Source: a virus (Duplodnaviria > Caudoviricetes). From it: a stretch of DNA of 64,000 nt. The notes under the pieces were generated by a model. That model saw nothing but the letters and a program-made list of their open reading frames with translations. It did no database searches and had not been told where the DNA came from. Positions 564-16,380 of this stretch are shown here, one piece after another; position 1 is the stretch's first letter; each line of letters opens with the position of its first letter. The DNA lies in IMG/VR virus record IMGVR_UViG_2931680285_000001, positions 1 to 64,000 of that record; one strand, 5' to 3'. The position numbers and the translations under genes are program-made.

Positions 564-983
564 TCAGAGGACGTCGGTGGCGTCGTAGAACGCGGCGAGG
601 CTGCTCGTGGACCTCTCCGGGCCGACGGGGAGGGAGGGGTTGGCGAACTCGGCGAGGACCTGTCGCTCGTACTCGGCGTCGCAGACGATGCGGGCGGTGT
701 GGTCGACCGTGCGGAAGCCGACCGTGGACCACTTCTCGACGGCGAACCGCTGGGACTCGGCGACGGGGTCGCGGTAGTCGAGGAGGCGGATGATCAGGAC
801 GGGGCCGGTCACGTCGTTGATGACGGACTCGCGCAGCGTGCGGCCACCCAGGATCTCGAACGAGTAGACATCGGCGTGCTCGGGCTGGATGCCGATGGGG
901 CCGGAGTCGGCGAGGACCGCACGGAGCGGGCCGCATATGGCGGTCAGTTCCTCGACGGTGGGCATATACAAGGCGACGGACAC
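564..983 (-). CDS. hypothetical protein (139 aa)
   Basis: GTG start just downstream of leader copy A (GAAAGG RBS); typical codon usage. Confidence 0.7.
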   Translation of the reverse strand: MSVALYMPTVEELTAICGPLRAVLADSGPIGIQPEHADVYSFEILGGRTLRESVINDVTGPVLIIRLLDYRDPVAESQRFAVEKWSTVGFRTVDHTARIVCDAEYERQVLAEFANPSLPVGPERSTSSLAAFYDATDVL

Positions 984-990
984 AGGAGTC

Positions 991-1068
991 CCTTTCGCTT
1001 CGGGTCGGTATTGGCGGCTGCTCTCCACCAACAAGGAAAATAGTACAGCAGGCGTCACCGCTGGTCTA
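991..1068 (-). promoter_or_regulatory. Repeated early promoter/leader, copy A
   Basis: TAGACC-17-TACTAT, spacer GACGCCTGCTG, hairpin TGTTGGTGG-AGAGCAG-CCGCCAATA, then CCGACCCGAAGCGAAAGG. Confidence 0.8.
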
Positions 1069-1118
1069 GTAATCCCAGATCAATAAGCCTCATGCGCCCC
1101 ATGGCGCCGCACGCTGTA

Positions 1119-2846
1119 TCAGTTGGTCATCTGGTTGTGCAGGTGAGGGCCGATGTACCCGACGACGAGTCGGCCGGCAGCCGCGCCCTCTGTGCTCTTC
1201 GCCCCGTCCAGGAAGTACAGCCGGGGTGCGACCGTGCCGCGTGCGCCCAGCTTGAGGTGGGCCTGCATCTCGACCCGGCGTCCGTCCGGGCCGGGGAAAA
1301 GGCGCTCGTGCCCGTACTTCTCCATCGTGGGCGGGCTTTCCGCCATCGCGACGTGCCGGACAGGGTAGGGACGGGCCCCGGGCGGTGGGGTCAGGCAGAA
1401 CTGGTAGAAGTTCCCGGTGAAACCGTCGGTGGCCGCCGCCGTGTAGGAGTCGAGGGCGCCCAGGGCCGTCCACGCCTTCGCCGCCCAGGTCCGCGCCTGG
1501 GGGTGAACGTCAAGCCCCAGGGCGGTGCGCCGGTCTGCGGTGACGAGCAGGCGATCCCACTCCTCCAGTCGCTGCCACAGCTCCTCGAACGAGCCAGGAA
1601 CGCCGGGGAGCCCCGCTCCGGCCTGCTCCGCCTCGTCATGGCGGTCCTGGCGCAGGAGCATCACCCGGAGCCGGTCCGTCTCCGCTCGGGCCTGCGACAG
1701 TGCGTCCAGGGTGGCGAGGTGGTCCTCGACCTCGGCGTCTCGCTCAGCGGCGACGGCAGCCAGCTCACTGCGGGCGGACAGGTGAGCTCGCTCGGTCAGG
1801 CCCTTGGCGCGGCCGAGCTCCGTCAGCTCCTCGTCGGCCTGACCCAGCAGCCCGTTCAGCAGGGTCACTTCCGCGCGGAGCTTCGTGAGCTGATCCTCGG
1901 GCTCGCCGGAGGGGGCGCTCGCGACCTGGCGGGCCTTGTCCAGGGTCTCCTGGCGCTCCTGGCGGTGCTGTTCGGCGACCCGGTTCGGGAACTCGACGGC
2001 CGCGAGCTGCTGCGGCATCGGCTGCTCCCGCGCGATGGAGAGGATGTTGGTGGTGATGCTGCGCCATGCCCGGTCTTCTGGGTTGGTCCAGCGGGGCGCT
2101 CCCAGGACACGGTGCCGGGCCCCGTCGGCTGCCCACGCAGGGTCGACGAGTGGTAGGTAGACGCGGACGGCACCAGCGTTGACGCGGTGGTCGTAGCCGA
2201 CGGCCTCGCGGAAGGCGTCGATGGCGGGAAGGTCCCACAGCAGGTAGGCCGAGGCGTCCCCGGAGACGGCGTGCACGGTGCCGGCCACGCGCTCCACCCA
2301 CAGCGGATGCCTCTGGGTGGGTCGGGCGGCGACGATCAGGGGCTTGTGCCGGTCGGGGGTGCGGAGCATGGTCACCAGGGCGGGAACCTGTTCCGCGGTG
2401 ACGCGCAGGGCCTCGGGGGTGAGCCGGGAGGGACCGTCGTACGCCTCCAGCTCGGTGACGAGCTCTCGGACGATCTTCGGCTTCGCGGTGCGCGGGGGGC
2501 GCTTGCTGCTGGGGAAGCATTCCAGGTCGACGCCGACCGTCCCCGGGCCGGTGGTGGATCGCACGGCGGTGATGGTGGTGCGCCAGGTGGCCGAGGGCTG
2601 GTATTCGCGGAGCTGCATTCGCGTGGCGTACTCGGCGCCGGTGTCGTCGTAGGCGGCTTCGGTCAGCAGGACCGTGCTGGGGGCGATGGTGTGCTGCCCG
2701 GTTCCGGCGGGAACAGCGCTCGAACCGAACTTGCCCTTCAGCCACTGGGCGGAGACCCAGCGGACGGTGTCGAGCATGGTGGTGGCGTCGGGGACGGTGA
2801 GGGTCGAGCGGTGGGCCAGGGTACGGGCGGAGCTGTCGGTGTTCAC
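1119..2846 (-). CDS. hypothetical protein with central coiled coil and possible RelE-like C-terminal domain (575 aa)
   Basis: Long GC3-rich ORF; heptad-rich middle; C-terminal HLKLG...RLYF...VVGYIGPHL pattern. Confidence 0.75.
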   Translation of the reverse strand: MNTDSSARTLAHRSTLTVPDATTMLDTVRWVSAQWLKGKFGSSAVPAGTGQHTIAPSTVLLTEAAYDDTGAEYATRMQLREYQPSATWRTTITAVRSTTGPGTVGVDLECFPSSKRPPRTAKPKIVRELVTELEAYDGPSRLTPEALRVTAEQVPALVTMLRTPDRHKPLIVAARPTQRHPLWVERVAGTVHAVSGDASAYLLWDLPAIDAFREAVGYDHRVNAGAVRVYLPLVDPAWAADGARHRVLGAPRWTNPEDRAWRSITTNILSIAREQPMPQQLAAVEFPNRVAEQHRQERQETLDKARQVASAPSGEPEDQLTKLRAEVTLLNGLLGQADEELTELGRAKGLTERAHLSARSELAAVAAERDAEVEDHLATLDALSQARAETDRLRVMLLRQDRHDEAEQAGAGLPGVPGSFEELWQRLEEWDRLLVTADRRTALGLDVHPQARTWAAKAWTALGALDSYTAAATDGFTGNFYQFCLTPPPGARPYPVRHVAMAESPPTMEKYGHERLFPGPDGRRVEMQAHLKLGARGTVAPRLYFLDGAKSTEGAAAGRLVVGYIGPHLHNQMTN

Positions 2847-2944
2847 GGATACCTCTTCGGGGTCGGGATGGAGGGGAGGTCCGGGCCCGCGCAGCGGTCG
2901 GCCGGCGCGGGGCCCGTCGTCCCCCGGAGGTCTGCGGAGGGGAG

Positions 2945-3457
2945 TCAGCCCCAGGGCGTCACAGCTGGACGCTTGATGCCGCGCGCGTGCCCGTACCAGC
3001 GCAGGAGGACGGCTGTCGGCTGTCGAGCGAGCCAGTCACGTCGTTCGGTGGTGGTGGCGGGCTCCCATTCGATGGCGGGCCCCGTGGGGTCGACGTGGGG
3101 CTGGAAGCCGGTCTCCAGGAGGACGTCGATGACGGTGGTGCGCTCCCGTACGGGCAGGGACAGGTCCGGCCAGTCGCTGCGCCCGACGCGGGTGTCGATG
3201 TGACGGACCAGCCAGTCGCGTTCGGAGATGTACGGGCCGACCTCTCCGGCAGCGGCTTGTACGGCGGACCGGCGGTCGACGGCCTGGACTTCGGTGGCCT
3301 TGAGCCCGCGGGCGAACATGTCCTGCCAGGCGGCGGCGTACGGTCCGAGCGATCCGTCCGGCTGGAGTTCGGCGCGTGCGGGGACGACGTGCAGCACTTC
3401 TCCGCGCTGGTGGAGGACGGTGAAGGTACGGAGGGGCTTGACGAGGTTGATGGGCAT
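2945..3457 (-). CDS. hypothetical protein (170 aa)
   Basis: ATG after GAAGG, MPINLVKPLR..., good codon bias. Confidence 0.65.
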   Translation of the reverse strand: MPINLVKPLRTFTVLHQRGEVLHVVPARAELQPDGSLGPYAAAWQDMFARGLKATEVQAVDRRSAVQAAAGEVGPYISERDWLVRHIDTRVGRSDWPDLSLPVRERTTVIDVLLETGFQPHVDPTGPAIEWEPATTTERRDWLARQPTAVLLRWYGHARGIKRPAVTPWG

Positions 3458-3525
3458 GGCGGACTGCCTTCTGCTGCTGGTGGGGTGGGTCGGCGCCCGC
3501 CTTCGTGGCGGGCGCCGGTGAGCGG

Positions 3526-3945
3526 CTAGGAGCCGAAGTGGCTGCGTCCGTCGCGGTTCACGTGGATGCCAGCCACGGAGAGGCTCCGGGCGACCTCGCG
3601 GTCCTTCCAGAAGCCGGTGGAGCAGTCCCAGCCGGAGATGCCGACGACGAAGCCGTAGAAGTAGCCGACCCCGTACCGGTCGAACTGGCGGACACCCGGC
3701 TCGTCGGGGTGGGAGTCGACGAGGGCCTTGAAGATGGCGCGGACGGCCCGCGTCTCGTACGAGTCGGCGGCGAAGCGGCGGGATTCGTGATGGCCGTATC
3801 CGTAGTCCCGTACCTCTTCGCAGGAGGCGGCGGCGAGCCGGGCGGCAACGGCGTCGGGCACTACCGCAACGGGACGGTCCCAGCAGTCGAGCGCAACGGT
3901 TACCTGCTCGGCGGTCAGTACCGGGGTGGTGATGGCCGTGGTCAT
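3526..3945 (-). CDS. hypothetical protein (139 aa)
   Basis: ATG after GAGGA RBS, MTTAITTPVL... Confidence 0.7.
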   Translation of the reverse strand: MTTAITTPVLTAEQVTVALDCWDRPVAVVPDAVAARLAAASCEEVRDYGYGHHESRRFAADSYETRAVRAIFKALVDSHPDEPGVRQFDRYGVGYFYGFVVGISGWDCSTGFWKDREVARSLSVAGIHVNRDGRSHFGS

Positions 3946-4060
3946 CAGGGGTCCTCACATGGGGGTGGAACGCGAGATTTCGCGAGTTTTGCGAGACCTC
4001 TACGCGCGCGCACGCGTAGAGGTGCTGGTTGGTCACGGGGCGCGGTGGCCCTGATGGGGC

Positions 4061-4294
4061 CTAGAAGTTGCGGAGGTCGTGGATGGTCTCCCAGCCCTCG
4101 GCGAGGTACGGCGTGGGGTTGGGCACGAGGGTTCGGACGCGCAGCTCCACGGCTCCTTCGGCGTTCCAGGCCCATTCGAAGTAGAACGGGCGGCCGTTGA
4201 TGTACCGCGTGTGGTCGGCCTGCCCACCGCCCTGGCCGTTGGCGTAGTGGTGGGGGTAGAGGCGGGGGCTGATGGTGAAGGTCGGGGTGGGCAT
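4061..4294 (-). CDS. hypothetical protein (77 aa)
   Basis: ATG after GAGGAG RBS, MPTPTFTISP... Confidence 0.65.
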   Translation of the reverse strand: MPTPTFTISPRLYPHHYANGQGGGQADHTRYINGRPFYFEWAWNAEGAVELRVRTLVPNPTPYLAEGWETIHDLRNF

Positions 4295-4416
4295 GGGGGT
4301 GCTCCTCTGCGAGGGGAGGGTCATGGGGTGCGGGGCGCCGGCATCGGGTGTTGGGCGCGCGGGATGGGGCCCGCCCCGCCGTGCGGGGCGGGGCGTGGCC
4401 GGGAAGCGCGGGAAGG

Positions 4417-4668
4417 TCAGGCTTCGGCGCGTTCGATGGCCTCGTTGATCGCCACGAGGCTGGCGTGGGCTTCGACGCCCTTACTGAAGGCTTCGTAGCG
4501 GTCGATCGCGGTCACCTCGTACACGTCGAGGCACAGGCCGAAGTGCGCCTCCAGGTACATCGCGTCGCGCTCGTCGTCGTCCTGGGGGGTGAGGGCGACG
4601 CCGAAGGGTGCTCCATCGACGAGGAAGACGGTGAAGGCGTAGGGGGTCTTGTCGAGGCTGACGGACAT
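4417..4668 (-). CDS. hypothetical protein (83 aa)
   Basis: ATG directly after leader copy B (GAAAGG), MSVSLDKTPY... Confidence 0.7.
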   Translation of the reverse strand: MSVSLDKTPYAFTVFLVDGAPFGVALTPQDDDERDAMYLEAHFGLCLDVYEVTAIDRYEAFSKGVEAHASLVAINEAIERAEA

Positions 4669-4675
4669 GGTGGTG

Positions 4676-4775
4676 CCTTTCGCTCTGGGTCGGTGCCCGG
4701 CTGCTCTCCGGGCGTTGTCGGCGACCACTTCCCGCCGACACAAAAAGAGTACAGCAGACGTCACGCGATGCGCAA
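4676..4775 (-). promoter_or_regulatory. Repeated early promoter/leader, copy B
   Basis: TTGCGC-18-TACTCT, spacer GACGTCTGCTG, hairpins TGTCGGCGG-GAAGTGG-TCGCCGACA and GCCCGG-AGAGCAG-CCGGGC, then CCGACCCAGAGCGAAAGG. Confidence 0.8.
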
Positions 4776-4834
4776 CATCACGACCATTTACTAAGCATTC
4801 AAGTCCAACAACACTCTCCAGCTCACTACCAAGC

Positions 4835-4918
4835 GACGCCTGCTGTACTTTTTCCTCATCGCTGTGTAGCGTTCGGAGCGCACCACCGGCCTGGAGAGCA
4901 ACCGGGCCCCCGACCCCC
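4835..4918 (+). promoter_or_regulatory. Repeated early promoter/leader, copy C (back-to-back with B)
   Basis: GACGCCTGCTG-TACTTT, hairpin GGCCTGG-AGAGCAA-CCGGGCC, then CCGACCC. Confidence 0.75.
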
Positions 4919-4935
4919 CTCTGGAGACAACTCCC

Positions 4936-5415
4936 ATGCGTTCATCGCGCCTTCGTCCCTACCTGCCGCGCCCCGCGGCGCTCCTCGTCGCCGTTGCGGC
5001 GGGCACGGTTCTCGCGCTCGCCTCGGCTTCGCCTCTCACCGAGGGCACCTCGCCCGCCGGGCGGGCGGGCCACCCGGTGGAAGTCGTCGCCGTTCCGCTG
5101 TCCGCCGAGCGCGGAGACGACAACCGGGACGGCCGGATCGACGAGGACGAGAGCGGCTGGGACTGCCGGACGATGGGCAACCGCATCTGCGGCCCGCGCA
5201 CGGTTCCTGCCGAGTGCAAGGGCGTCGGCTCTGCGATGGATCTGTGCGTAACGGTGGCCAGCCGCCCGCCGTACGGATGGACGAACGCCGACGGCTCCCG
5301 CACCGACAACCCGGACGGCCGCACGCTGATCGCCGACCTCGACGAGACGCCGGGCAGCCCGGAGTTCGAGAGCGCCTTGGTCGCGCTCGACGCCGAGTGG
5401 CGCCAGCAGCACTGA
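4936..5415 (+). CDS. putative secreted protein with Asp-rich Ca-binding-like loop
   Basis: Basic N-terminus + hydrophobic stretch (signal peptide-like); GDDNRDGRIDEDESGWDCRTMGNRICG. Confidence 0.7.
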   Translation: MRSSRLRPYLPRPAALLVAVAAGTVLALASASPLTEGTSPAGRAGHPVEVVAVPLSAERGDDNRDGRIDEDESGWDCRTMGNRICGPRTVPAECKGVGSAMDLCVTVASRPPYGWTNADGSRTDNPDGRTLIADLDETPGSPEFESALVALDAEWRQQH

Positions 5416-5428
5416 CCACCGTCACCCC

Positions 5429-5456
5429 GGGGGCGCAGCCGCGCCGCTGCGCCCCC
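5429..5456 (+). terminator. GC-rich intergenic hairpin
   Basis: GGGGGCGCAGC-N6-GCTGCGCCCCC. Confidence 0.5.
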
Positions 5457-5482
5457 GCCCACCCTGCCGGGAAGGACCCGCG

Positions 5483-6091
5483 ATGCCCACGTACTTCGAC
5501 CTCGACCCGACGACGCGCCCCGTCCTCCTGTCCGCGCGCCCGGCCGGCACTCACCCGTACGACTTCGACCCCGCCGCCGTGCGCATCGTGCGCGCCGACC
5601 GGGTCCGGCGCGGGGACGTTGTGCTCGGGGAGGTCTACGGCCACGACCCGGGCCACTCCGCCGGAGTCAGCTACCTGCCGTACGGCTGCGTCCCGTACGC
5701 CGCCCGGCCGCGCCCCCTCGACCCGGCGTGCCCGTGCGAGATGTGCGCCGCCGTCCGCTCGGACCCGTTCACGTACCTCACCGATCCGGTCGCGCTCACG
5801 GTCTGGCCGCGCGACGGCCTGGACCCGGTCTGCCAGCTCAACAACGCTGACGAACTTCTCGTGATCGTGCCCGCGTGGGCGAGGAACGGGGCGTTTCCGA
5901 CGCCCGTGCGGCGCTACTGCCGGGAGCGCGTCGAGCGGGCCGCCAACGACGCATTCGACCGCCTGTCGGCTTACTTCGACTTCGGCCAGCCGGACGACCG
6001 GCAGCTGTTCACGGGGGCGGTGCTCGCCTTCCTGGACGACCCGGACAGCCCTTTCCCGTACCGGAGCCACGAGCCCGACGACGAGTCGTGA
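5483..6091 (+). CDS. hypothetical protein, Cys-containing (202 aa)
   Basis: GAAGGA RBS; CxCxxC motif; similar to next gene. Confidence 0.7.
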   Translation: MPTYFDLDPTTRPVLLSARPAGTHPYDFDPAAVRIVRADRVRRGDVVLGEVYGHDPGHSAGVSYLPYGCVPYAARPRPLDPACPCEMCAAVRSDPFTYLTDPVALTVWPRDGLDPVCQLNNADELLVIVPAWARNGAFPTPVRRYCRERVERAANDAFDRLSAYFDFGQPDDRQLFTGAVLAFLDDPDSPFPYRSHEPDDES

Positions 6092-6131
6092 CCGGCCATC
6101 TCCCCACCCGCCAGACAGGATTGGAACCCCC

Positions 6132-6773
6132 ATGCGCTTGATGACGCTCGCCGACGGCACCGTGTCCCTTCACGTCGACGACCGGCCGACGGATGACGAC
6201 GAGTTCGACTCGCCGCTGCCCTACGGGCTCACGCTCGACGACGCGGTCGCCGTTCGGGCCCGGGAGGTGGAAGCCGGGGACCTTGTCGTCGCGTTCACCG
6301 ACGAGCAGTTCGGGGCGCGCCGCGTCGACCACTGCCCTCAGCCGTTCCCGGCCGCGCCCACCTCGCCTCCCGGGTGCGCTGGCAGGGCGTGTGAGGAGTG
6401 CGCCAAGTTGGAAGCGTGGACCCTGGCCGATCACGCTCGTGTTGCGGATCTCGCGTGGCGGTACGTGTGCCTGTCCCCGGCAGAGGCGGGCGAACCGTGC
6501 GTGATCGAGCGGGCCAACCTGCCCGTGATCGTGGTGCGCGCCGAGCGGGTGGAGCGCGCCAAGGCCGCGAGCGGGCCGGTCCGGCGCCCGTTCAGCGTGA
6601 CGTGGTCGGCGGACGTGGAGGCGGCCGACCCGGAGGAGGCGGCGCAGCTCGCCTACGAACAGGTTCGGGCGCAGGTGGAGGCCGCGACCGCGATGCGATG
6701 GGAGGTCTCGGAGTCGGAGGGCGAGGCTCGCACGGTGACCGCGCCCGTCGCCGCGACGGAGGTCGGGGCGTGA
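6132..6773 (+). CDS. hypothetical protein, paralog of 5483-6091 (213 aa)
   Basis: Shares VRAxxVxxGDxV and P(Y/F)xAxP...C..C segments. Confidence 0.7.
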   Translation: MRLMTLADGTVSLHVDDRPTDDDEFDSPLPYGLTLDDAVAVRAREVEAGDLVVAFTDEQFGARRVDHCPQPFPAAPTSPPGCAGRACEECAKLEAWTLADHARVADLAWRYVCLSPAEAGEPCVIERANLPVIVVRAERVERAKAASGPVRRPFSVTWSADVEAADPEEAAQLAYEQVRAQVEAATAMRWEVSESEGEARTVTAPVAATEVGA

Positions 6774-6994
6774 AGGGGCGGGACTGGCGGGAGATGACCC
6801 GGGCCGACTTCGACATGACTGCGCCGCTGCGCCTCCGACCTCCCGGGGGCGGTGGCCGCGTGCCGGCCGTGCCGGACTCGTACGGGACGGAGGCCCTGTT
6901 CGGTGACGAGGTGGGGGCGCCGCCCGCCCCGGGCAGGCGGGCGCGTGGGGCGGAGCCGCCGCAGGAAGACACATTGTTCACCCTGGATCTGTAG
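6770..6994 (+). CDS. hypothetical protein (74 aa)
   Basis: GTGA overlap with upstream stop, GGAGG RBS. Confidence 0.6.
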   Translation: MKGRDWREMTRADFDMTAPLRLRPPGGGGRVPAVPDSYGTEALFGDEVGAPPAPGRRARGAEPPQEDTLFTLDL

Positions 6995-7088
6995 ACACAG
7001 CAGCCGCCACCGACAGCCGTCCAGATCGGAGCCCAGCACAGGAACACGCAGGTAGATGACCCAAGTCGATCCGATCACCCTTCCCGGC

Positions 7089-7188
7089 TAGACACGTTGT
7101 GACGCCTGCTGTACTATTTTTTCTGTTGGTGGAGAGCAGCCGCCGACATCGCCCGGAGAGCAACCGGGCAACCGACCCGAAGCGAAAG
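7089..7188 (+). promoter_or_regulatory. Repeated early promoter/leader, copy D (two AGAGCAR hairpins)
   Basis: TAGACA-17-TACTAT; TGTTGGTGG-AGAGCAG-CCGCCGACA; GCCCGG-AGAGCAA-CCGGGC; CCGACCCGAAGCGAAAG. Confidence 0.85.
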
Positions 7189-7197
7189 AAGATCCCC

Positions 7198-7566
7198 ATG
7201 GCTTCCGCCAACGCCCGCCGCGCCGCCGCCGTCCTCCGTCACCGCGCCCGAGACAACCGCGCCGCACATCAGGCCGCGCAGGCCGTCTCAACCGGCGTCG
7301 CCGCCGTCTCCGCCCACCTGATCGCGGGCGGTCTCGACCCGGCCACCGCTCACCGCTTCTCCGGCGCCGTCACCCGCAAGGCCAAGGCCCTCGGTCACAC
7401 CCCGGCCGCCACCGGCACCAAGCGCAAGAAGCTCAAGGGCCGCGTCTCCAAGCTCGTCGAGTTCGCCCTGTGGACCCGGGCGCAGATCGCCGCCGTCCTC
7501 GCCGTCTACCGGCCGAAGGACAAGCAGGCCGCCGCCCTCTTCGCGCGCCTCGCTCTCGCCGCCTGA
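7198..7566 (+). CDS. basic hypothetical protein (122 aa), possibly nucleic-acid binding
   Basis: ATG after leader D; Lys/Arg/Ala-rich (TKRKKLKGR). Confidence 0.75.
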   Translation: MASANARRAAAVLRHRARDNRAAHQAAQAVSTGVAAVSAHLIAGGLDPATAHRFSGAVTRKAKALGHTPAATGTKRKKLKGRVSKLVEFALWTRAQIAAVLAVYRPKDKQAAALFARLALAA

Positions 7567-7626
7567 CGGACACAAGCCCCGGCCGGGGCGCACCCTCACG
7601 CCCCGGCCCAACCCCTGGAGAGACCC

Positions 7627-7839
7627 GTGTCCGACACCGTCCGCACCCTGGCCGACCACGCACGCCCCGCCTGGGACCTCTTCCGCGAGGCGTTCCCCGC
7701 CGCTGAGATCACCGACCTCATCACCGACCTACTCCACCTCGCTGACATCGACTCCGACACCGACGGCACCGACGTACTCGACCGGGCCACGCGCGACTGG
7801 GAGGCGGAACGCTCCGATCCCTCCTCCGCCGCTGGCTGA
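7627..7839 (+). CDS. acidic hypothetical protein (70 aa)
   Basis: GGAGA RBS, ITDLITDLLHLAD motif. Confidence 0.7.
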   Translation: MSDTVRTLADHARPAWDLFREAFPAAEITDLITDLLHLADIDSDTDGTDVLDRATRDWEAERSDPSSAAG

Positions 7840-7896
7840 TCGTCCACCATCCCCGCTGGGGCGCCCAGCGCCCCGGCCCCTTCTCCGGAGCACACC

Positions 7897-8574
7897 GTGA
7901 ACCTCTCCCTGCCTGCCCGTTCCGCCGTCGCGACCCGTGCCCGCGTCGCCGCCGCCGTCTGCCGTGATCGCTTCGCTCCGCCCGCGACGATGCGCGCGCT
8001 CCACTCGATCGCTGTCCACCTCGACGACGCCGCGTCAGCCTGTGGGGCCACCCCGTTCAACTTTCCGGCCGTCATGCGCCCGCTCGCCGAAGCTCAGAAG
8101 CTGATGGGGGCTCACCCTGACGCACGCCTGCCCCTCAGCGTCCTGCCGTACATCGTCGCCCCGTTCTCTCCGGCCGTCGCCCTGCCAATACCGGAGCCGC
8201 TGCTGCCCCTGATGGAGCGGCACGCAGCCGAGGAAGCCGCCCTTGTAGCGGACCTGGACCGGCTCCACGCCGACACGACCGCTGCCGCCGAGGACACCGA
8301 GACGTGGTTCACCGCCGTGCTCGGCGTCCTGGCGAAGTGGATGCGCCTGGCCGGTGAGGTCGACGTCGACAACCACCGCCCCGGCAACCGCCAGGCCGTA
8401 GTCGCCAAGCACGTCTCCTGCCCCAAGTGCTCCGGCCACGATGTCCGATTCAGCGTCCGTGAATGGGCGACCTGCTCGTGCGGCTACGGGGACCTGTGGG
8501 GCCAGTTCCTCGTCTGCTTCTGCTTCGGCTACGACTGCCCCGCCATCACCGCCCCTGCCGTCGCCGCAGTCTGA
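7897..8574 (+). CDS. hypothetical protein with C-terminal Zn-ribbon
   Basis: GGAG RBS; CPKC...CSCG...CFC...DC. Confidence 0.7.
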   Translation: MNLSLPARSAVATRARVAAAVCRDRFAPPATMRALHSIAVHLDDAASACGATPFNFPAVMRPLAEAQKLMGAHPDARLPLSVLPYIVAPFSPAVALPIPEPLLPLMERHAAEEAALVADLDRLHADTTAAAEDTETWFTAVLGVLAKWMRLAGEVDVDNHRPGNRQAVVAKHVSCPKCSGHDVRFSVREWATCSCGYGDLWGQFLVCFCFGYDCPAITAPAVAAV

Positions 8575-8585
8575 CCACCCCCCGG

Positions 8586-8609
8586 GGGGCGCGCCGCCGG
8601 GCGCGCCCC
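8586..8609 (+). repeat. 24-bp hairpin repeat, identical copy at 9331-9354
   Basis: GGGGCGCGCC-GCCG-GGCGCGCCCC in both places, each after TGACCACCC. Confidence 0.8.
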
Positions 8610-8613
8610 TTCC

Positions 8614-8651
8614 CGGCCGGAGAGCAACCGGCCGCCGACCCACCCGAAAGG
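8614..8651 (+). promoter_or_regulatory. Leader hairpin copy E (no promoter part)
   Basis: CGGCCGG-AGAGCAA-CCGGCCG then CCGACCCACCCGAAAGG. Confidence 0.75.
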
Positions 8652-8660
8652 CACCACCCC

Positions 8661-9323
8661 ATGACCACCGCCGTCGTCACCGCCTCCCAGCTCGCCGCCG
8701 ACGCCCGCGTCACGCACCGCGCCTACGCCGCGTTCCTGCACCGCGATCCGTCCGAACTCATCGACCGTCTCGACGAGATGTGCGACTACGCCGCTCCCCG
8801 CAGCTCGGAACAGCCCTGGGGCGTCGCGCTCCAGCGCCTGACCCGCGCTCTGCGAGCCGTCAGCCCGGCCCCGGCCCGCCCGACCACGTCCGGCCGCGCG
8901 GAGCACCAAGCGGCGACCACGGCCGCCCTGAACGCCATCGTCGCGTTCGAGGAGGCCGACGCGGTGACCGTGACGCTCCCCCACGACGAGCACGGCCGCT
9001 ACGTTCCCGCCCCTGGCACGGAGTACCCGTTCCATGTCTCGGACATCGGCCGCGCCGCCGTGCAGCTCCTCGGCTCCCACTGGCACGCCGAGTCCTTCTC
9101 CTTCGGCGTCGGCGCGCACCTGACGCGTACGGGCAGCGTGCGCGGCTTCGTGCTCGGCGTCGACGACGAGGGAGACCTGTTCTTGGAGGACGAGGACGAC
9201 AGCAGCCGCCGCAGCCACTTCCTGTACGCCTCCGCCGCCGACGGGCTGCTCCCCCTCGCGCACCTCGTCGCCGACAGGATTCGCGAGATCCGCGAGATGC
9301 GCCTGTTGAGCGCCGCCGCCTGA
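8661..9323 (+). CDS. hypothetical protein (220 aa)
   Basis: ATG after GAAAGG, MTTAVVTASQ... Confidence 0.7.
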   Translation: MTTAVVTASQLAADARVTHRAYAAFLHRDPSELIDRLDEMCDYAAPRSSEQPWGVALQRLTRALRAVSPAPARPTTSGRAEHQAATTAALNAIVAFEEADAVTVTLPHDEHGRYVPAPGTEYPFHVSDIGRAAVQLLGSHWHAESFSFGVGAHLTRTGSVRGFVLGVDDEGDLFLEDEDDSSRRSHFLYASAADGLLPLAHLVADRIREIREMRLLSAAA

Positions 9324-9330
9324 CCACCCT

Positions 9331-9354
9331 GGGGCGCGCCGCCGGGCGCGCCCC
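9331..9354 (+). repeat. 24-bp hairpin repeat, identical to 8586-8609
   Basis: Exact match GGGGCGCGCCGCCGGGCGCGCCCC. Confidence 0.8.
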
Positions 9355-9420
9355 ACACATCCCCGGGGCCGCACCGTTGCGGCTCCGGCCGGCTCACCCA
9401 CGACCACACCGGAGAACCCT

Positions 9421-9885
9421 TTGAACGCCGCCCTCGACACCGCTTCCGTCCCGGCTGTACCCGAGCTGTTCACCCGCACCCAGGTCAGGGAAGCGATCAG
9501 CGCGGGCATCGACCTGACCACCGACGAGGCGAACCGATCCGACCGCGAGGACCGCTTCGTGTGGGCATCGGCCGCCGTGCTGGTTCTGCTCGACGAGCCC
9601 GACGCCACGTGGGCCGCCATCCGGGAGCACCGCAACGGCACCCCGGTCACCCGCGAGGACGACGACGTCGCGCAGTTCACCCGCGACCAGGTGGCCCGCG
9701 CTGTCGACGACAGCGTGCGGCTCGTTGCCGGGGCCAGCCCCCGTCGTCTGCCCGACGACATCGACGACTTGATCGTGAACGCGACGCTGACGCTCCTCGA
9801 CAACCCCCGGGCCGACTTCGAGTCGATCGCCCGCGACAACTACGCCGTGAGCCCGCGCGAACTGCGCTCCTGGCTGCACGACTGA
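9421..9885 (+). CDS. hypothetical protein made of two tandem ~65-aa repeats
   Basis: FTRTQVREAI...LVLLDEPDATWAAI vs FTRDQVARAV...LTLLDNPRADFESI; TTG start after GGAGA. Confidence 0.7.
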   Translation: MNAALDTASVPAVPELFTRTQVREAISAGIDLTTDEANRSDREDRFVWASAAVLVLLDEPDATWAAIREHRNGTPVTREDDDVAQFTRDQVARAVDDSVRLVAGASPRRLPDDIDDLIVNATLTLLDNPRADFESIARDNYAVSPRELRSWLHD

Positions 9886-9995
9886 CACCCCGATGGCCAG
9901 GCCGCACGGTGCCGCCCATCCCTCCCTCCCGCCCGGTGAACACCGGGCAGCCCACGGCGAGAGGCGACGTAAGCCGCCTCCCGCCGCTCCACTCC

Positions 9996-10031
9996 CCGGC
10001 GAGAGCAACGCCGGTCGACCCGAAGAGAAGG
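9996..10031 (+). promoter_or_regulatory. Leader hairpin copy F
   Basis: CCGGCG-AGAGCAA-CGCCGG then TCGACCCGAAGAGAAGG. Confidence 0.75.
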
Positions 10032-10037
10032 AACCCC

Positions 10038-10883
10038 ATGAGCACCGTCATCGCCCCCGGGCACGCCGGACTGGCACTCGCCCACCGAATCGTCGAGCAC
10101 CTGCCGCACCGAGACGGCCACGCCTGGACCGCCGCCGCCTACTCGGCGTGGTGGACCACCCGTCCGGCCGCGCGCCTCACGCAGACCGGCCGCACTGGGG
10201 CCGTGATCGTGGCCGTTCAGGCGTGGCGCACCGAGCTCGCCTTCCAGCTCGACGGGCGGGAGCCGTACCGCCCCGACGCGGTCACGGACCGGCTCGCCCC
10301 GCAGCCGATCGCGCGGGAGATCCTGCGCCTGGTGCTGCCGCGCCTCGACGACGCGACCGCTCTCGCCGAGGCACCCGCGCCCGCCGACGCCGCCCCTGTG
10401 CGCCTGGCCCACCTCGGACTGATCGGGGCTGCTCTGCGCGCCCACGGCGCCGAGCCGGCCGAGCGCCGGGGACCGCTGCCTCACTCCGACTCTCTGGTCT
10501 GGCGCAGCGGGAGCGGCATGGAGTACCGGGCGACGCTGGTCGGCGCGAACCCGGCCGTCGACCTCGCGCTCTCGGGCCCCGTCCGGGAGGTGGAGGCCGT
10601 GTTGCCGCTGTTCCTGGACGAGCCCGCCAAACTGCCGCGCCGCGTCCGGGGGGTGAAGACCGCCCTGGGCCGCAGGCTCGCCGCGCACCTGACGCAGTTC
10701 ACGACGGTCGACCTCCTCGACGACGGTGGGCTGAGCGTCGGCACGGCGAGCGGCCCGTTCGGATACGTCGCTCCGCCCGCCGACCCGGGCGCGCCCGTCG
10801 GCGACAGCTCGCCGGTCGCCGCCGAGCTGCACGGGGTGGGCATCGACCACCTGATCAGCCTCGCGCCGCTCTTCGCCCGCTGA
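10038..10883 (+). CDS. hypothetical protein (281 aa)
   Basis: ATG after GAAGGA, MSTVIAPGHA... Confidence 0.7.
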   Translation: MSTVIAPGHAGLALAHRIVEHLPHRDGHAWTAAAYSAWWTTRPAARLTQTGRTGAVIVAVQAWRTELAFQLDGREPYRPDAVTDRLAPQPIAREILRLVLPRLDDATALAEAPAPADAAPVRLAHLGLIGAALRAHGAEPAERRGPLPHSDSLVWRSGSGMEYRATLVGANPAVDLALSGPVREVEAVLPLFLDEPAKLPRRVRGVKTALGRRLAAHLTQFTTVDLLDDGGLSVGTASGPFGYVAPPADPGAPVGDSSPVAAELHGVGIDHLISLAPLFAR

Positions 10884-10900
10884 CCCGCTCCGCCCCTTCC

Positions 10901-10928
10901 GCGCGCCCGGCCTATCCGCCGGGCGCGC
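10901..10928 (+). terminator. GC-rich hairpin
   Basis: GCGCGCCCGGC-N6-GCCGGGCGCGC followed by TTCT. Confidence 0.55.
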
Positions 10929-11030
10929 TTCTCTGCCCTTGGCCCCACCGACTGAGGGACAGGGGCCACCCCGCCAGAACCGCGCGCACAGCGCCAGCAC
11001 ACGTCACGAGCAACGCGCTTACCTGCACAT

Positions 11031-11131
11031 TCGACTTCACGGCGACGTCTGCTGTACTATTTTCTCTGTTGGCGGAGAGCAGCCGCCGACACCGCCCGGA
11101 GAGCAACCGGGCAACCGACCCAAAGCGAAAG
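11031..11131 (+). promoter_or_regulatory. Repeated early promoter/leader, copy G (two hairpins)
   Basis: TCGACT-18-TACTAT; TGTTGGCGG-AGAGCAG-CCGCCGACA; GCCCGG-AGAGCAA-CCGGGC; CCGACCCAAAGCGAAAG. Confidence 0.85.
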
Positions 11132-11141
11132 AGCATCCTTC

Positions 11142-12488
11142 GTGTCCGAGCTGACCGCCGCCGAAGAAGACTTCCTCGACACCGTCCTCCTGGACTACCA
11201 CTACGCCGACAAGCCCATCCCCGCGGGCGTCATGGCCGAGCTGGACCAGATCGCCGCGCCCTGGCCGGGCCGCTGGCTCCTCCCCTCCAAGCCTGGCGAC
11301 CGCAAGCGCGTCATCGAGCTCTGCGCCGGCCCCGGGGGCTGGGCGGAAGGACTCAAGACCGTCCTCGGCCTCACCGCCTACGACGTCGTCGGCGTCGACA
11401 TGAGCGCGGACGCCTGCGCCACCGCCGTCGCCGCCGGGCACGTCCGAATATGCGCCGACATCACGAAGCTCGATCCCGAGCACCCCGCGCTGCGCGAGAC
11501 CGTCGGCGTCATCATCAGCCCACCGTGCCCCAGCTTCTCCACCGCCGGGAAGCGTGCCGGACTCCTCCGCAGCAACATCTGCATCCTGCGCGACGCCATC
11601 GCCGCCGTCGGCGAGGCCGGGGGCTTCATCCGTCTCGACGAGGTCTGCTGCGACGAGCTGTACCCCGACCTCGAAGACGACTGCCCGCTGTGCGCCGATT
11701 TTGGCTACCACGAGGGCTACGCCCCCCGAAACGGGCAGACCTGGGACGACGTCCGCGCCATGCTCGACGGCCTCACCGACCCGCGCATCGGCCTCATGCT
11801 CGAAGTGGTCCTCTGGCCGCTCGCCCTGCAGGCCGCTGGTGCGCCCATCGAGTGGATGGTCATGGAGCAGTCGAACAACCTGCCCGAGGAGATCCTGGAG
11901 GAGCTGAGCGTCGAGTTCGGCGGCGCCGACTGGTTCCGCACCACATGGGCCATCCTGGAGGCCGCAGACCTCGGCGTCGCCTCCCGCAGGAAGCGAGCCT
12001 TCATGATCGCCTCCCGGTACCGCTGGGTCACCCTGGAGCCGCCGAAGGAGCCCCTGCCGACCACCACGATGGCCGAAGCACTCGGGTGGGACGAGGGCGA
12101 GCGGGTGAATACGCGCGGCCAGCGGCCCGTCGACCCGGCCACGGGGCGCGCCAAGGGCGGCAACACCTACTCGGCGGACAAGCCCTCTTGGTGCCTGACG
12201 GGCAAGACCCGCACCTGGGTCCGCGAGCGGGACGGACTGCGGCTCACGCCCGCTGAGGCCGGGGTCCTCGTCTCCTTCCGGGCGTCGTACCCGTGGCAGG
12301 GCTCCCGCTCCAGCCAGTTCCAGCAATCCGGTGATGTCGTATGTCCGGCCGTCGCCGCGTATGTCCTGGGGGTGCTCCACGGCGTGGACTGGGAACGCCG
12401 GGTCCGGGACTACCTGACCGGCCTGTACCACTACGACGACCTGTGGACCGACGAACCCTGGCCCGAGGAATACGACTTGGCGGTCTGA
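11142..12488 (+). CDS. orphan DNA (cytosine-5)-methyltransferase
   Basis: Motif I ELCAGPGG, motif IV SPPCPSFS, motif VI-like MEQS, motif VIII GVASRRKRAF, motif IX/X RLTPAEA...QQSGDVV. Confidence 0.85.
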   Translation: MSELTAAEEDFLDTVLLDYHYADKPIPAGVMAELDQIAAPWPGRWLLPSKPGDRKRVIELCAGPGGWAEGLKTVLGLTAYDVVGVDMSADACATAVAAGHVRICADITKLDPEHPALRETVGVIISPPCPSFSTAGKRAGLLRSNICILRDAIAAVGEAGGFIRLDEVCCDELYPDLEDDCPLCADFGYHEGYAPRNGQTWDDVRAMLDGLTDPRIGLMLEVVLWPLALQAAGAPIEWMVMEQSNNLPEEILEELSVEFGGADWFRTTWAILEAADLGVASRRKRAFMIASRYRWVTLEPPKEPLPTTTMAEALGWDEGERVNTRGQRPVDPATGRAKGGNTYSADKPSWCLTGKTRTWVRERDGLRLTPAEAGVLVSFRASYPWQGSRSSQFQQSGDVVCPAVAAYVLGVLHGVDWERRVRDYLTGLYHYDDLWTDEPWPEEYDLAV

Positions 12489-16278: not shown

Positions 16279-16380
16279 CACCTCCACGCCGTGGGCTGTA
16301 CTATTTCCGTGTTCACTCGGCATGGGGTTGCCCCAGCCGTCGCCGGCACCGGCCCGGTGCCACATACGACGGAGGCCAAG

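What the first reader, a model, noticed from the sequence alone, without database searches (positions are those of the whole stretch)
991..11131. Seven-copy structured leader with invariant AGAGCA(A/G) loop and covarying stems upstream of early genes
Seen: copies at 991-1068(-), 4676-4775(-), 4835-4918, 7089-7188, 8614-8651, 9996-10031, 11031-11131. Nine hairpins keep the 7-nt loop AGAGCAR while stems change compensatorily (GCCCGG/CCGGGC, CGGCCGG/CCGGCCG, CCGGCG/CGCCGG, GGCCTGG/CCGGGCC, TGTTGGYGG/CCGCCRAYA) and tolerate G-U pairs; each is followed by CGACCC..GAAAG(G) running into the RBS. The loop is always on the sense strand of the downstream gene. Two copies occur mid-operon without the promoter part. 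Inference: an undescribed cis-regulatory RNA motif, e.g. a boxB-like antitermination or translational-control site for an element-encoded RNA-binding protein, coordinating an establishment regulon (functionally comparable to conserved upstream repeats of IncN plasmids).
Basis: partly seen in the sequence, partly recalled or inferred. Interest (0 to 1): 0.82.

Follow-up and report, generated by a model that had tools for sequence, protein, structure and literature searches.

The report
Phage early-gene leader RNA hairpin
A family of large Streptomyces phages, some of which live as plasmids, puts the same small RNA hairpin (fixed tip, freely changing stem) just ahead of the ribosome-binding site of about fifteen early genes; it is an uncatalogued control tag, and what reads it is still unknown.

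Summary
AGAGCAR-N5-14-CGACCC occurs 7 times against 0.08 expected. The element is a roughly 110-kb prophage related to Streptomyces phage Gilgamesh and to 125-130-kb circular Streptomyces plasmids. It carries 14 of the 15 covariance-model matches in the 8.75-Mb genome. The same leader occurs in 12 related loci and in 8 of 150 sampled genomes of the genus. Over 114 copies, 98.3% of stem cells pair (67.7% when shuffled) and five of six pairs change on both sides. The tip GG-AGAGCA(R)-CC is nearly fixed, and G-U outnumbers A-C 24 to 3, so the sense strand folds. A single-stranded box after the hairpin is uniform within a genome but differs between lineages. There is no Rfam match, and nothing turned up in the papers searched. 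My best reading is a post-transcriptional tag on early cistrons, including DpdA and a C5 DNA methylase, read by an unidentified factor. Antitermination, passive stabilisation and an antisense RNA remain open. This scan noted the same motif earlier on other DNA (e1-6158448, e1-5986453).

The parts
1037..1051 (-). Early promoter block (CTGCTGTACTATTTT, contains the -10-like TACTAT) of leader copy A
   Evidence: 0 mismatches
1009..1033 (-). Leader hairpin A: 9-bp stem TGTTGGTGG/CCGCCAATA, loop AGAGCAG; starts 6 nt after the -10-like hexamer
984..1008 (-). Single-stranded box CCGACCC..GAAGCGAAAGG (Shine-Dalgarno) of copy A, running into the GTG start at 983-981 of a 139-aa ORF (564-983) with no Pfam or PHROG match
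4743..4757 (-). Early promoter block of copy B (1 mismatch)
4716..4740 (-). First hairpin of copy B, in the promoter-adjacent position but with a different loop (not AGAGCA)
4695..4713 (-). Leader hairpin B2: GCCCGG/CCGGGC, loop AGAGCAG; then ACCGACCC..GAAAGG and ATG at 4668-4666 (83-aa ORF 4417-4668)
4840..4854 (+). Early promoter block of copy C (1 mismatch), divergent from copy B
4888..4908 (+). Leader hairpin C: GGCCTGG/CCGGGCC (one G-U), loop AGAGCAA; then CCCGACCC and ATG at 4936 (159-aa ORF; PHROG families of unknown function)
7089..7120 (+). Promoter of copy D: TAGACA-17 nt-TACTAT (9 of 12 to the sigma-70 consensus), overlapping the conserved block
7124..7148 (+). Leader hairpin D1: TGTTGGTGG/CCGCCGACA, loop AGAGCAG
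7151..7169 (+). Leader hairpin D2: GCCCGG/CCGGGC, loop AGAGCAA; box AACCGACCCGAAGCGAAAG up to 7197
7198..7566 (+). Gene for a 122-aa basic protein with an arginine-rich N-terminal helix (phrog_10890, function unknown). In every relative examined its gene directly follows a promoter plus leader hairpin.
8614..8634 (+). Mid-operon leader hairpin E: CGGCCGG/CCGGCCG, loop AGAGCAA, no promoter block. It directly follows a GC-rich terminator-like hairpin (8584-8611) and precedes CCGACCC..GAAAGG and ATG at 8661 (220-aa ORF)
9996..10014 (+). Mid-operon leader hairpin F: CCGGCG/CGCCGG, loop AGAGCAA, no promoter block; then TCGACCC..GAAGG and ATG at 10038 (281-aa ORF)
11049..11063 (+). Early promoter block of copy G (0 mismatches)
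11067..11091 (+). Leader hairpin G1: TGTTGGCGG/CCGCCGACA, loop AGAGCAG
11094..11112 (+). Leader hairpin G2: GCCCGG/CCGGGC, loop AGAGCAA; box up to 11141
11142..12488 (+). C5 cytosine DNA methyltransferase gene (GTG start) served by leader G
   Evidence: PF00145, E 1.5e-17

Best explanation
The unit is a portable mRNA leader of a phage or phage-plasmid family. It has three parts. First comes a short hairpin whose apex G-G-[AGAGCA(R)]-C-C is fixed while the rest of the stem is free to change as long as it pairs. Next is an unstructured C/A-rich box that is uniform within a genome but differs between lineages. Last is a uniform Shine-Dalgarno sequence (GAAAGG or GAAGGAAC) about 6-10 nt before the start codon. 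I propose that it acts in the RNA as a shared tag. A sequence-specific factor, probably encoded by the phage and not identified here, binds the exposed apex, perhaps together with the box, and sets translation initiation and/or mRNA lifetime of about 15 early cistrons together, for example switching them on at entry or off later. The hairpin would also cap the 5' end of each message, either at the transcription start for promoter-adjacent copies or after processing for mid-operon copies. Shown here: the structure, its strand, its conservation, its position and its restriction to this element family. Inferred: that it works in RNA rather than single-stranded DNA, that there is a trans-acting reader, and that the output is translation or stability.
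For: Structure and selection. Over 114 model matches (113 distinct rows) from 15 of 24 sources, 98.3% of 666 stem cells form standard pairs, against 67.7% after shuffling and 29-56% with the partner slid by 1-3 columns. There are 179 cells changed on both sides against 66.8 shuffled (0 of 500 shuffles reach either value). Five of six pairs change on both sides (the smaller set is). Of 109 loops parsed from the 114 matches, 97 read AGAGCA, AGAGCAA or AGAGCAG and 107 keep GAGCA. The stems have about 29 different six-base 5' arms. Sense-strand folding: in 70 distinct hairpins there are 471 Watson-Crick pairs, 24 G-U, 3 A-C and 4 other interior mismatches. Position: every copy is sense to the next gene, and the hairpin ends 18-36 nt before the start codon. 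In the folds the loop is exposed and the ribosome-binding site is open. Element specificity: 14 of 15 matches in the 8.75-Mb genome lie in C5:323271-431947. In the genus sample, 142 of 150 other genomes have no match at E<=1e-4, and 6 have 6-13 clustered copies. The loop is not a generic stable loop of the host: 69 of 2823 AGAGCA sites genome-wide have a stem of 5 bp or more, 17 of these are the leaders, and the remaining 1.9% is about what random pairing gives. A genome-specific partner is suggested by the box: CGACCC in 14 of 14 own copies and 9 of 9 in L013; ACCAC in 9 of 9 (L001), 8 of 9 (L011) and 8 of 8 (L026); CCCGAA-type in 7 of 7 (L010), 9 of 9 (L014) and 8 of 8 (L015). Tagged genes include DpdA (E 1e-90) and a C5 methylase.
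Against: No reader was found. The basic 122-aa protein next to a leader in every relative has no convincing fold match: best VIA Z is 5.3, the best Foldseek hits are ribosomal protein uS7 at E 0.06-1, and Atlas structural neighbours at TM about 0.5 are DNA-binding antirepressor families. Its similarity does not follow the box type: 85% identity between L001 (ACCAC) and L012 (CCCGAA), but 61% between L001 and L011, which both have ACCAC. Homologues at 47-49% identity sit in IMG/VR contigs that lack the motif. No expression data exist for this DNA, so transcription starts, processing and any regulation are unobserved. Gene orientation and side of the divergence point are confounded: in all 13 loci with both orientations, every minus-strand copy lies left of every plus-strand copy, so a strand-specific DNA role is not formally excluded. 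The alignments used for pair counts were fitted by the model, and the sequences are related, so the shuffle counts are not probabilities.
Confidence: 0.45

Rival explanations
1. The leader is a nut-like processive antitermination site. The hairpin, as in boxB, is bound in the nascent RNA by a phage protein that modifies RNA polymerase so that it reads through the GC-rich hairpins that follow nearly every early gene. Mid-operon copies would reload the complex.
For: About half of the copies (49 of 109) lie within 45 nt of the early promoter's -10-like element, and the TGTTGGYGG-type hairpins begin 5-8 nt after it. Each early gene in the window is followed by a GC-rich hairpin without a T tract (no canonical terminators). 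A linear conserved box accompanies the hairpin. The first gene after one strong promoter plus double hairpin encodes a basic protein with a conserved arginine stripe on a long N-terminal helix. N proteins bind boxB through an arginine-rich N-terminal peptide (PMC11480772, passages read).
Against: There are 14-16 copies per element, each at a fixed short distance from a Shine-Dalgarno sequence and start codon, which antitermination does not need. The box lies downstream of the hairpin. The basic protein is predicted to be folded (pLDDT 88), matches no Pfam family at E<=0.01, and also occurs where the motif is absent.
Confidence: 0.15
2. The leader is a passive stabiliser and insulator. The hairpin only protects the 5' end of each message from 5'-end-dependent RNases and keeps the ribosome-binding site free of upstream pairing. 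The loop would be kept for folding reasons, not for a reader.
For: Promoter-adjacent hairpins start about where transcription should start. The ribosome-binding site stays single-stranded in all 7 folds. Mid-operon copies sit right after terminator-like hairpins, which would leave each cistron flanked by two hairpins.
Against: A purely structural role does not explain an apex of about 10 nt kept across elements whose shared proteins are only 34-44% identical, while stems change freely. The host does not favour this loop in its own hairpins. Nor does a structural role explain a box that is uniform within a genome but differs between lineages.
Confidence: 0.15
3. The target is read by a phage-encoded antisense RNA. 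A small RNA with a complementary loop pairs (kisses) with the AGAGCA apex or with the box and shuts off the tagged messages together, as earlier notes of this scan propose for other Streptomyces phage-plasmid families.
For: This is a lead only, from earlier unchecked notes on other families (e1-5958603, e1-5912584, e1-6113188, e1-5820919). A box that is uniform within a genome and differs between genomes would suit an RNA partner.
Against: In the own element I found no model match in antisense orientation and no tRNA-like gene. Outside the leaders there was no intergenic stretch of 9 nt or more complementary to the apex or box that looked like a hairpin loop; the hits were in coding sequence or on the opposite strand of variant leaders. 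Two antisense AGAGCA hairpins lie inside a gene and are conserved only in the 98%-identical relative. The search was by exact words in one element, so a short or imperfect partner would be missed.
Confidence: 0.1
4. It is a DNA-level element: an operator for a dimeric DNA-binding protein, or a hairpin extruded in single-stranded DNA that serves replication, packaging or recombination between cassettes.
For: The promoter-adjacent class has conserved arms (TGTTGGYGG/CCRCCRACA) over +1 to +25, where an operator could sit. Copies switch strand at one point in all 13 loci that have both orientations. Repeated promoter-leader cassettes could drive gene shuffling, as PeSLs do in T4-type phages (PMC2839356, section 13 read).
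Against: For most copies the arms vary and the spacer is fixed, the opposite of a dimer operator. G-U pairs outnumber A-C 24 to 3, so only the sense strand pairs well. The position is tied to start codons.
Confidence: 0.07

Closest known systems
Lambda-type nut sites (boxB hairpin plus boxA, read by N protein)
   Same: Both are small hairpins in early phage transcripts whose loop, not stem, carries the specificity. Both are accompanied by a linear conserved box and lie downstream of early promoters. An arginine-rich N-terminal peptide reads boxB (PMC11480772, passages read), and a basic protein with an arginine stripe is encoded right after one leader here.
   Different: Here there are 14-16 copies per element, each 18-36 nt from a start codon, many of them mid-operon. 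The box is downstream of the hairpin and merges with the Shine-Dalgarno sequence. The loop has 6-7 nt. No N homologue was detected and no antitermination was shown. The usual count of two nut sites per genome is recalled, not from a call.
Start-associated sequences (SAS) and extended SAS of Cluster K mycobacteriophages (PMC3203893; passages read)
   Same: Both are actinobacteriophage-specific repeats present in 11-19 copies, in one orientation, in the non-structural half of the genome. Both sit within a few bases of start codons, include the Shine-Dalgarno core, are absent from the host, and have an unknown reader.
   Different: SAS is a 13-bp linear word (GGGATAGGAGCCC in that paper). ESAS has conserved 17-bp arms with a variable spacer, and the authors found no support for RNA pairing. 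Here the spacer (loop) is fixed, the arms vary, and the pairing covaries strongly.
PeSL (promoter-early stem-loop) cassettes of T4-type phages (PMC2839356; abstract and section 13 read)
   Same: Both are repeated cassettes of early promoter, stem-loop and Shine-Dalgarno sequence upstream of ORFans in plastic regions, and both are possible substrates for modular shuffling.
   Different: PeSL stem-loops lie in or around the promoter and act as terminators for upstream transcription, and no conserved loop is described. Here the hairpin is downstream of the -10 element, has an invariant apex, has no T tract, and also occurs without a promoter.
Mu Com-mom and T4 RegA translational control
   Same: In both, a phage protein binds near the ribosome-binding site of phage messages to activate one (Com, on a DNA-modification gene) or repress many (RegA). 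This is the kind of output proposed here, and two of the tagged genes here are DNA-modification enzymes.
   Different: There is no sequence or structural relation. The Com target is a single site, and RegA sites overlap the start codon and are not hairpins. Nothing here was tested.

Membership tests
Any Rfam 15 family | Match to a curated covariance model | tested here: not met
   There were 0 matches at gathering score in the 64-kb window. Three weak matches at E up to 5 in 900-11300 were all away from the motif. The rest of the element gave only the host RNase P RNA.
Lambda-type nut site (boxA/boxB-N) | Small hairpin in the nascent early transcript with a sequence-specific loop | tested here: met
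   Covarying stem, near-invariant apex, sense strand.
Lambda-type nut site (boxA/boxB-N) | Few sites per genome, placed after early promoters and not coupled to ribosome-binding sites (the usual number is recalled) | tested here: not met
   There are 14 model matches in one element. Each ends 18-36 nt before a start codon. 60 of 109 have no -10-like element within 45 nt.
Lambda-type nut site (boxA/boxB-N) | N-type reader with an arginine-rich N-terminal peptide | tested here: inconclusive
   A basic 122-aa protein with conserved R7, R14, R16 and R21 on a predicted helix is encoded next to a leader in all relatives. It has no Pfam match or clear fold match, and homologues exist without the motif.
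Lambda-type nut site (boxA/boxB-N) | Read-through of downstream terminators | not testable with these tools
   No RNA run is listed for this DNA.
SAS/ESAS of Cluster K mycobacteriophages | 13-bp asymmetric word at the ribosome-binding site, 3-7 bp from start codons (PMC3203893) | tested here: not met
   The conserved box here is a different sequence and differs by lineage. Only the placement is alike.
SAS/ESAS of Cluster K mycobacteriophages | ESAS: conserved 17-bp inverted arms, variable spacer, no RNA covariation | tested here: not met
   Here the loop is fixed, the arms vary, and 98.3% of cells pair with 179 double changes.
PeSL cassettes of T4-type phages | Sigma-70-like early promoter joined to a stem-loop and a Shine-Dalgarno sequence upstream of ORFans | tested here: met
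   Five of 7 window copies carry the promoter block, and one scores 9 of 12 to the consensus. 11 of 15 tagged gene products scanned have no Pfam match at E<=0.01.
PeSL cassettes of T4-type phages | Stem-loop lies within or upstream of the promoter and acts as a terminator | tested here: not met
   The hairpins lie downstream of the -10 element, lack T tracts, and also occur without a promoter. Terminator activity itself was not testable.
Antisense-RNA-controlled leaders (P1/P7 C4 type; kissing loops) | A trans RNA encoded by the element with a loop complementary to the leader | tested here: inconclusive
   None was found by exact-word scans of the own element, by the model on both strands, or by ARAGORN. 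A short or imperfect partner would be missed.
5'-terminal stabiliser hairpins | [quoted passage not shown] | tested here: inconclusive
   TGTTGGYGG-type hairpins start 5-8 nt after the -10-like hexamer, so they should begin at about +1, but no transcription start was mapped.

The most novel reading that the evidence does not exclude
The leader is a two-part RNA address label of a phage-wide post-transcriptional regulon. A universal hairpin apex, GG-AGAGCA(R)-CC, is read by one conserved partner. A lineage-specific single-stranded box is read by a co-evolving, element-encoded partner, either protein or RNA. Together they give each phage-plasmid private, switch-like control over its entry and anti-restriction genes (DpdA, C5 methylase and a dozen unknowns). 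This would be comparable to N/nut or immunity specificity but would act at the ribosome-binding site of every tagged cistron.
Probability: 0.2. Interest if true: 0.8.

Novelty: new variant of a known kind. Interest (0 to 1): 0.55.

Why it matters
Streptomyces phage-plasmids of this family are almost entirely of unknown function. Of 20 window proteins scanned against Pfam, only the C5 methylase matched. The leader marks a set of about 15 genes per element that the phage treats as one class, and the two with known families are DNA-modification enzymes, which suggests that the rest are also entry or counter-defence functions. If a reader exists, it would be a new sequence-specific RNA recognition pair in actinobacteria. 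It would also be a compact, portable expression tag for Streptomyces engineering. Phage Gilgamesh, which carries the motif, was isolated on S. lividans according to its record, so the question can be tested at the bench.

Tried and rejected
Rfam gave no family.

RNA evidence: no RNA holder is listed for this DNA, and read laying was not used.

Loop pairing with 16S rRNA is rejected. The genome's 16S gene, located by its 3' end, contains no TGCTC.

Antisense or tRNA-shaped partner RNA: not found in the own element. The 12-nt complements at C5:425467 and C5:422537 turned out to be the opposite strand of variant leaders. The complement at C5:411684 and the GGTTGCTCT words lie in or beside coding sequence; one encodes a Walker A motif.

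The basic 122-aa protein as reader is neither supported nor excluded:
- The sequence search against solved structures gave a best E of 0.46.
- Foldseek's top hits were uS7 at E 0.06-1 with TM 0.25.
- VIA-align's best Z was 5.3.
- The Atlas gave only hypothetical clusters and antirepressor-like neighbours at TM about 0.5.
- Identity does not track the box type.

Pfam and PHROGs on the tagged genes returned mostly nothing.

Literature: searches for 'Streptomyces phage' + 'Gilgamesh' (0 papers), 'Streptomyces' + 'phage-plasmid' (59 papers, 15 listed, none on this motif by title or abstract), and 'Streptomyces phage'/'stem-loop'/'early promoter' found no description. Supplements were not opened. 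The IncN conserved-upstream-repeat papers were seen only as a listing.

A resemblance between the loop and a stretch of the neighbouring RNase P RNA gene was not pursued and is treated as chance.

Limits: the genome search scored only 150 of 17,524 first-look candidates in the own genome and 39 per genome in the genus sample, so the counts are lower bounds. Five of the 114 matches were dropped from the loop tally because my pattern did not find a loop.

Full report
WHAT IS THERE. The window has 70% G+C. Its left 12 kb holds two divergent sets of small genes. The nine hairpins with a 7-nt AGAGCAR loop are at 1009-1033(-), 4695-4713(-), 4888-4908, 7124-7148, 7151-7169, 8614-8634, 9996-10014, 11067-11091 and 11094-11112. 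AGAGCAR alone is hardly enriched (19 against 10.3 expected). AGAGCAR-N5-14-CGACCC occurs 7 times against 0.08 expected, always sense to the next gene. A 15-nt promoter-like block occurs 6 times at up to 3 mismatches against 0.11 expected. Five of these precede leader copies, and the copies at 8614 and 9996 lack it. One copy has TAGACA-17-TACTAT, 9 of 12 to the sigma-70 consensus. All seven leaders fold with the proposed hairpins, an exposed loop and a mostly unpaired ribosome-binding site. Whole-leader z-scores are modest, -2.4 to +0.2.

WHAT THE ELEMENT IS. The region resembles Streptomyces phage Gilgamesh (129 kb) and circular Streptomyces 'plasmids' of 125-130 kb. The window is C5:333457-397456 of an 8.75-Mb genome. 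A covariance model of the leader finds 15 matches there at E<=0.01, and 14 of them lie in C5:323271-431947 (only 150 of 17,524 candidates were scored). The host RNase P RNA gene lies just to the right, at C5:434197-434595. The element is therefore a prophage of about 110 kb from a family that also exists as plasmids and as a virion. Earlier notes of this scan describe its head genes, a late promoter motif and a Cas8e cassette; I did not re-test those.

THE FAMILY OF LEADERS. Model R1 was built from 11 own copies. It found 67 matches at E<=0.001 in 381 kb of related loci. Model R2, built from those matches, found 114 at E<=0.01 in 478,646 bases. Fifteen of 24 sources had matches. The nine without were the own flanks L029-L031, L019, two alphaproteobacterial loci (L020, L021) and three IMG/VR contigs (L023-L025). 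In a sample of the genus, 8 of 150 other genomes matched at E<=1e-4. Six had 6-13 clustered copies and two had a single match.

STEMS AND LOOPS. On the 114 matches, 98.3% of 666 stem cells pair, against 67.7% shuffled and 29-56% slid. There are 179 cells changed on both sides against 66.8, and five of six pairs change on both sides. The innermost pair is G-C in all 106 rows with letters on both sides, and the next pair is G-C in 107 of 111 such rows (for the 67-match set). These alignments are fitted to the model and the sequences are related. As an independent check I anchored on the loop by pattern alone. In 109 of 114 matches a loop was found: AGAGCA 57, AGAGCAA 32, AGAGCAG 8, T/CGAGCA(N) 10, and two single variants. 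There are about 29 different stem arms, and stems have 5 or more uninterrupted pairs in 96 of 109. Eleven of the remaining 13 have only 3 uninterrupted pairs; those I inspected are stems interrupted by a one-base bulge. In 70 distinct hairpins G-U pairs outnumber A-C mismatches 24 to 3, so the sense strand is the one that folds. Genome-wide, only 69 of 2823 AGAGCA sites have such a stem, and 17 of those are the leaders.

TWO FURTHER REGULARITIES. First, promoter-adjacent hairpins nearly always have the arm (T)GTTGGYGG and start 5-8 nt after the -10-like hexamer, which is about where transcription should start. Second hairpins and mid-operon hairpins have free GC-rich stems. Exceptions exist: a non-AGAGCA loop at 4716-4740, and a CTAGCTGGG stem with an AGAGCGA loop at L028 about 10540-10565(-). 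Second, the single-stranded box after the hairpin is uniform within a genome and differs between lineages. It is CGACCC in 14 of 14 own copies and 9 of 9 in L013. It is ACCAC in 9 of 9, 8 of 9 and 8 of 8 copies in L001, L011 and L026. It is CCCGAA-type in 7 of 7, 9 of 9 and 8 of 8 copies in L010, L014 and L015. [quoted passage not shown] Untagged cistrons in the same operons use GGAG-type sites (read).

WHICH GENES ARE TAGGED. Of 15 tagged gene products scanned against Pfam, two have a match above the curated cut-off: the C5 cytosine methylase (PF00145) and DpdA (PF23859, E 1e-90). One has a weak AAA_24 hit, one a weak HTH_1 hit, and 11 have nothing at E<=0.01. PHROGs gave only families of unknown function. 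Gilgamesh's annotated queuine tRNA-ribosyltransferase and DNA methylase carry the leader too.

WHO READS IT. I could not find out. The loop has no complement in 16S rRNA. I found no antisense copy, no tRNA-like gene and no convincing complementary loop in the own element. This was a lead from earlier notes on other phage-plasmid families.

One candidate protein is the 122-aa basic protein at 7198-7566. It has a predicted long N-terminal helix with conserved arginines. It is encoded directly after a promoter-plus-hairpin leader in all four annotated relatives, in the eight loci where one search shows that leader in front of it, and in all six multi-copy genomes of the genus sample. The evidence against it is substantial. 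It has no clear fold relative. Homologues occur in contigs that lack the motif and instead have three 12-bp palindromes upstream. Its similarity does not follow the box type. I keep it only as a weak candidate.

MECHANISM. The many copies, the fixed distance to start codons, the open ribosome-binding site, the fixed apex on free stems, the restriction to one element family and the lineage-specific box together fit best a post-transcriptional tag read by a specific factor that sets translation or stability of the early class (confidence 0.45). The rivals are nut-like antitermination (0.15), a passive 5' cap and insulator (0.15), an antisense RNA partner (0.10) and a DNA-level role (0.07).

COMPARISON WITH KNOWN SYSTEMS. 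The leader is like boxB in logic but not in number or placement. It is like the SAS of Cluster K mycobacteriophages in placement but opposite to ESAS in what is conserved (PMC3203893, passages read). It is like PeSL cassettes in modular layout but not in the position or role of the stem-loop (PMC2839356, abstract and section 13 read). It is not in Rfam 15. This scan recorded the same AGAGCA leader earlier in a ~126-kb relative (e1-6158448) and a GAGC-centred variant in another (e1-5986453). My searches agree with both, and add the strand test, the genus survey, the lineage-specific box and the negative tests of readers.

Noticed in passing
window 16293-16380 (+); L001 25060-25158 (+): A second type of early leader. 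The same -10-like block (GGGCTGTACTATTTC) is followed by a different conserved hairpin (GGCATGGGGTTGCCCCAG) instead of the AGAGCA hairpin. It is shared with the leader of Gilgamesh gene 155.
   Followed up: no
window 8584-8611 and 9326-9356 (+): Nearly identical GC-rich hairpins (GGGGCGCGCC-GCCG-GGCGCGCCCC) follow two successive early genes. Most early genes here and in Gilgamesh end with such T-tract-less hairpins, so the operons look punctuated.
   Followed up: partly
L028 10431-10590 (-) = C5:425430-425589: A variant leader that the model missed. It has the promoter block, then a hairpin CTAGCTGGG/CCCAGCTAT with loop AGAGCGA, then a long spacer before ACCGACCCGAAG and the start of a 188-aa ORF.
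   Followed up: partly
L027 10516-10532 and 10977-10993 (+) = C5:323972, 324433; L013 2868, 3327: Two 5-bp AGAGCA(R)-loop hairpins lie antisense inside the minus-strand coding region between the leaders at L027 9815-9864 and 11707-11758. In that mRNA they would show loops complementary to the leader loops. They are conserved only in the 98%-identical relative, so they are probably chance.
   Followed up: partly
L023 5750-5866, L024, L025 (IMG/VR contigs): Homologues (47-49% identical) of the basic 122-aa protein sit in a different small element without the AGAGCA leader. They are preceded by three copies of the 12-bp palindrome TTGTAGCTACAA, which looks like an operator array.
   Followed up: no
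L027 12367-13707 (-) = C5:325823-327163: A 446-aa protein that fuses an endonuclease/exonuclease/phosphatase domain to a methyltransferase domain, next to dpdA in the early-left arm.
   Followed up: no
L028 19198-19596 (-) = C5:434197-434595: The host RNase P RNA gene lies about 2 kb beyond the last leader copy, so the prophage's right end may be next to rnpB. The borders and the integrase were not mapped.
   Followed up: no
L028 4335-4350 (+) = C5:419334-419349: A perfect 12-nt palindrome GTTGCGCGCAAC in an apparently non-coding stretch after a terminator-like hairpin. Its function is unknown.
   Followed up: no
L001 16198-16250 (Gilgamesh): The annotated start of Gilgamesh gene 137 (DNA methylase, GTG at record 118223) lies inside the leader hairpin. 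The ATG about 40 nt downstream, after the box and Shine-Dalgarno sequence, looks like the true start.
   Followed up: no
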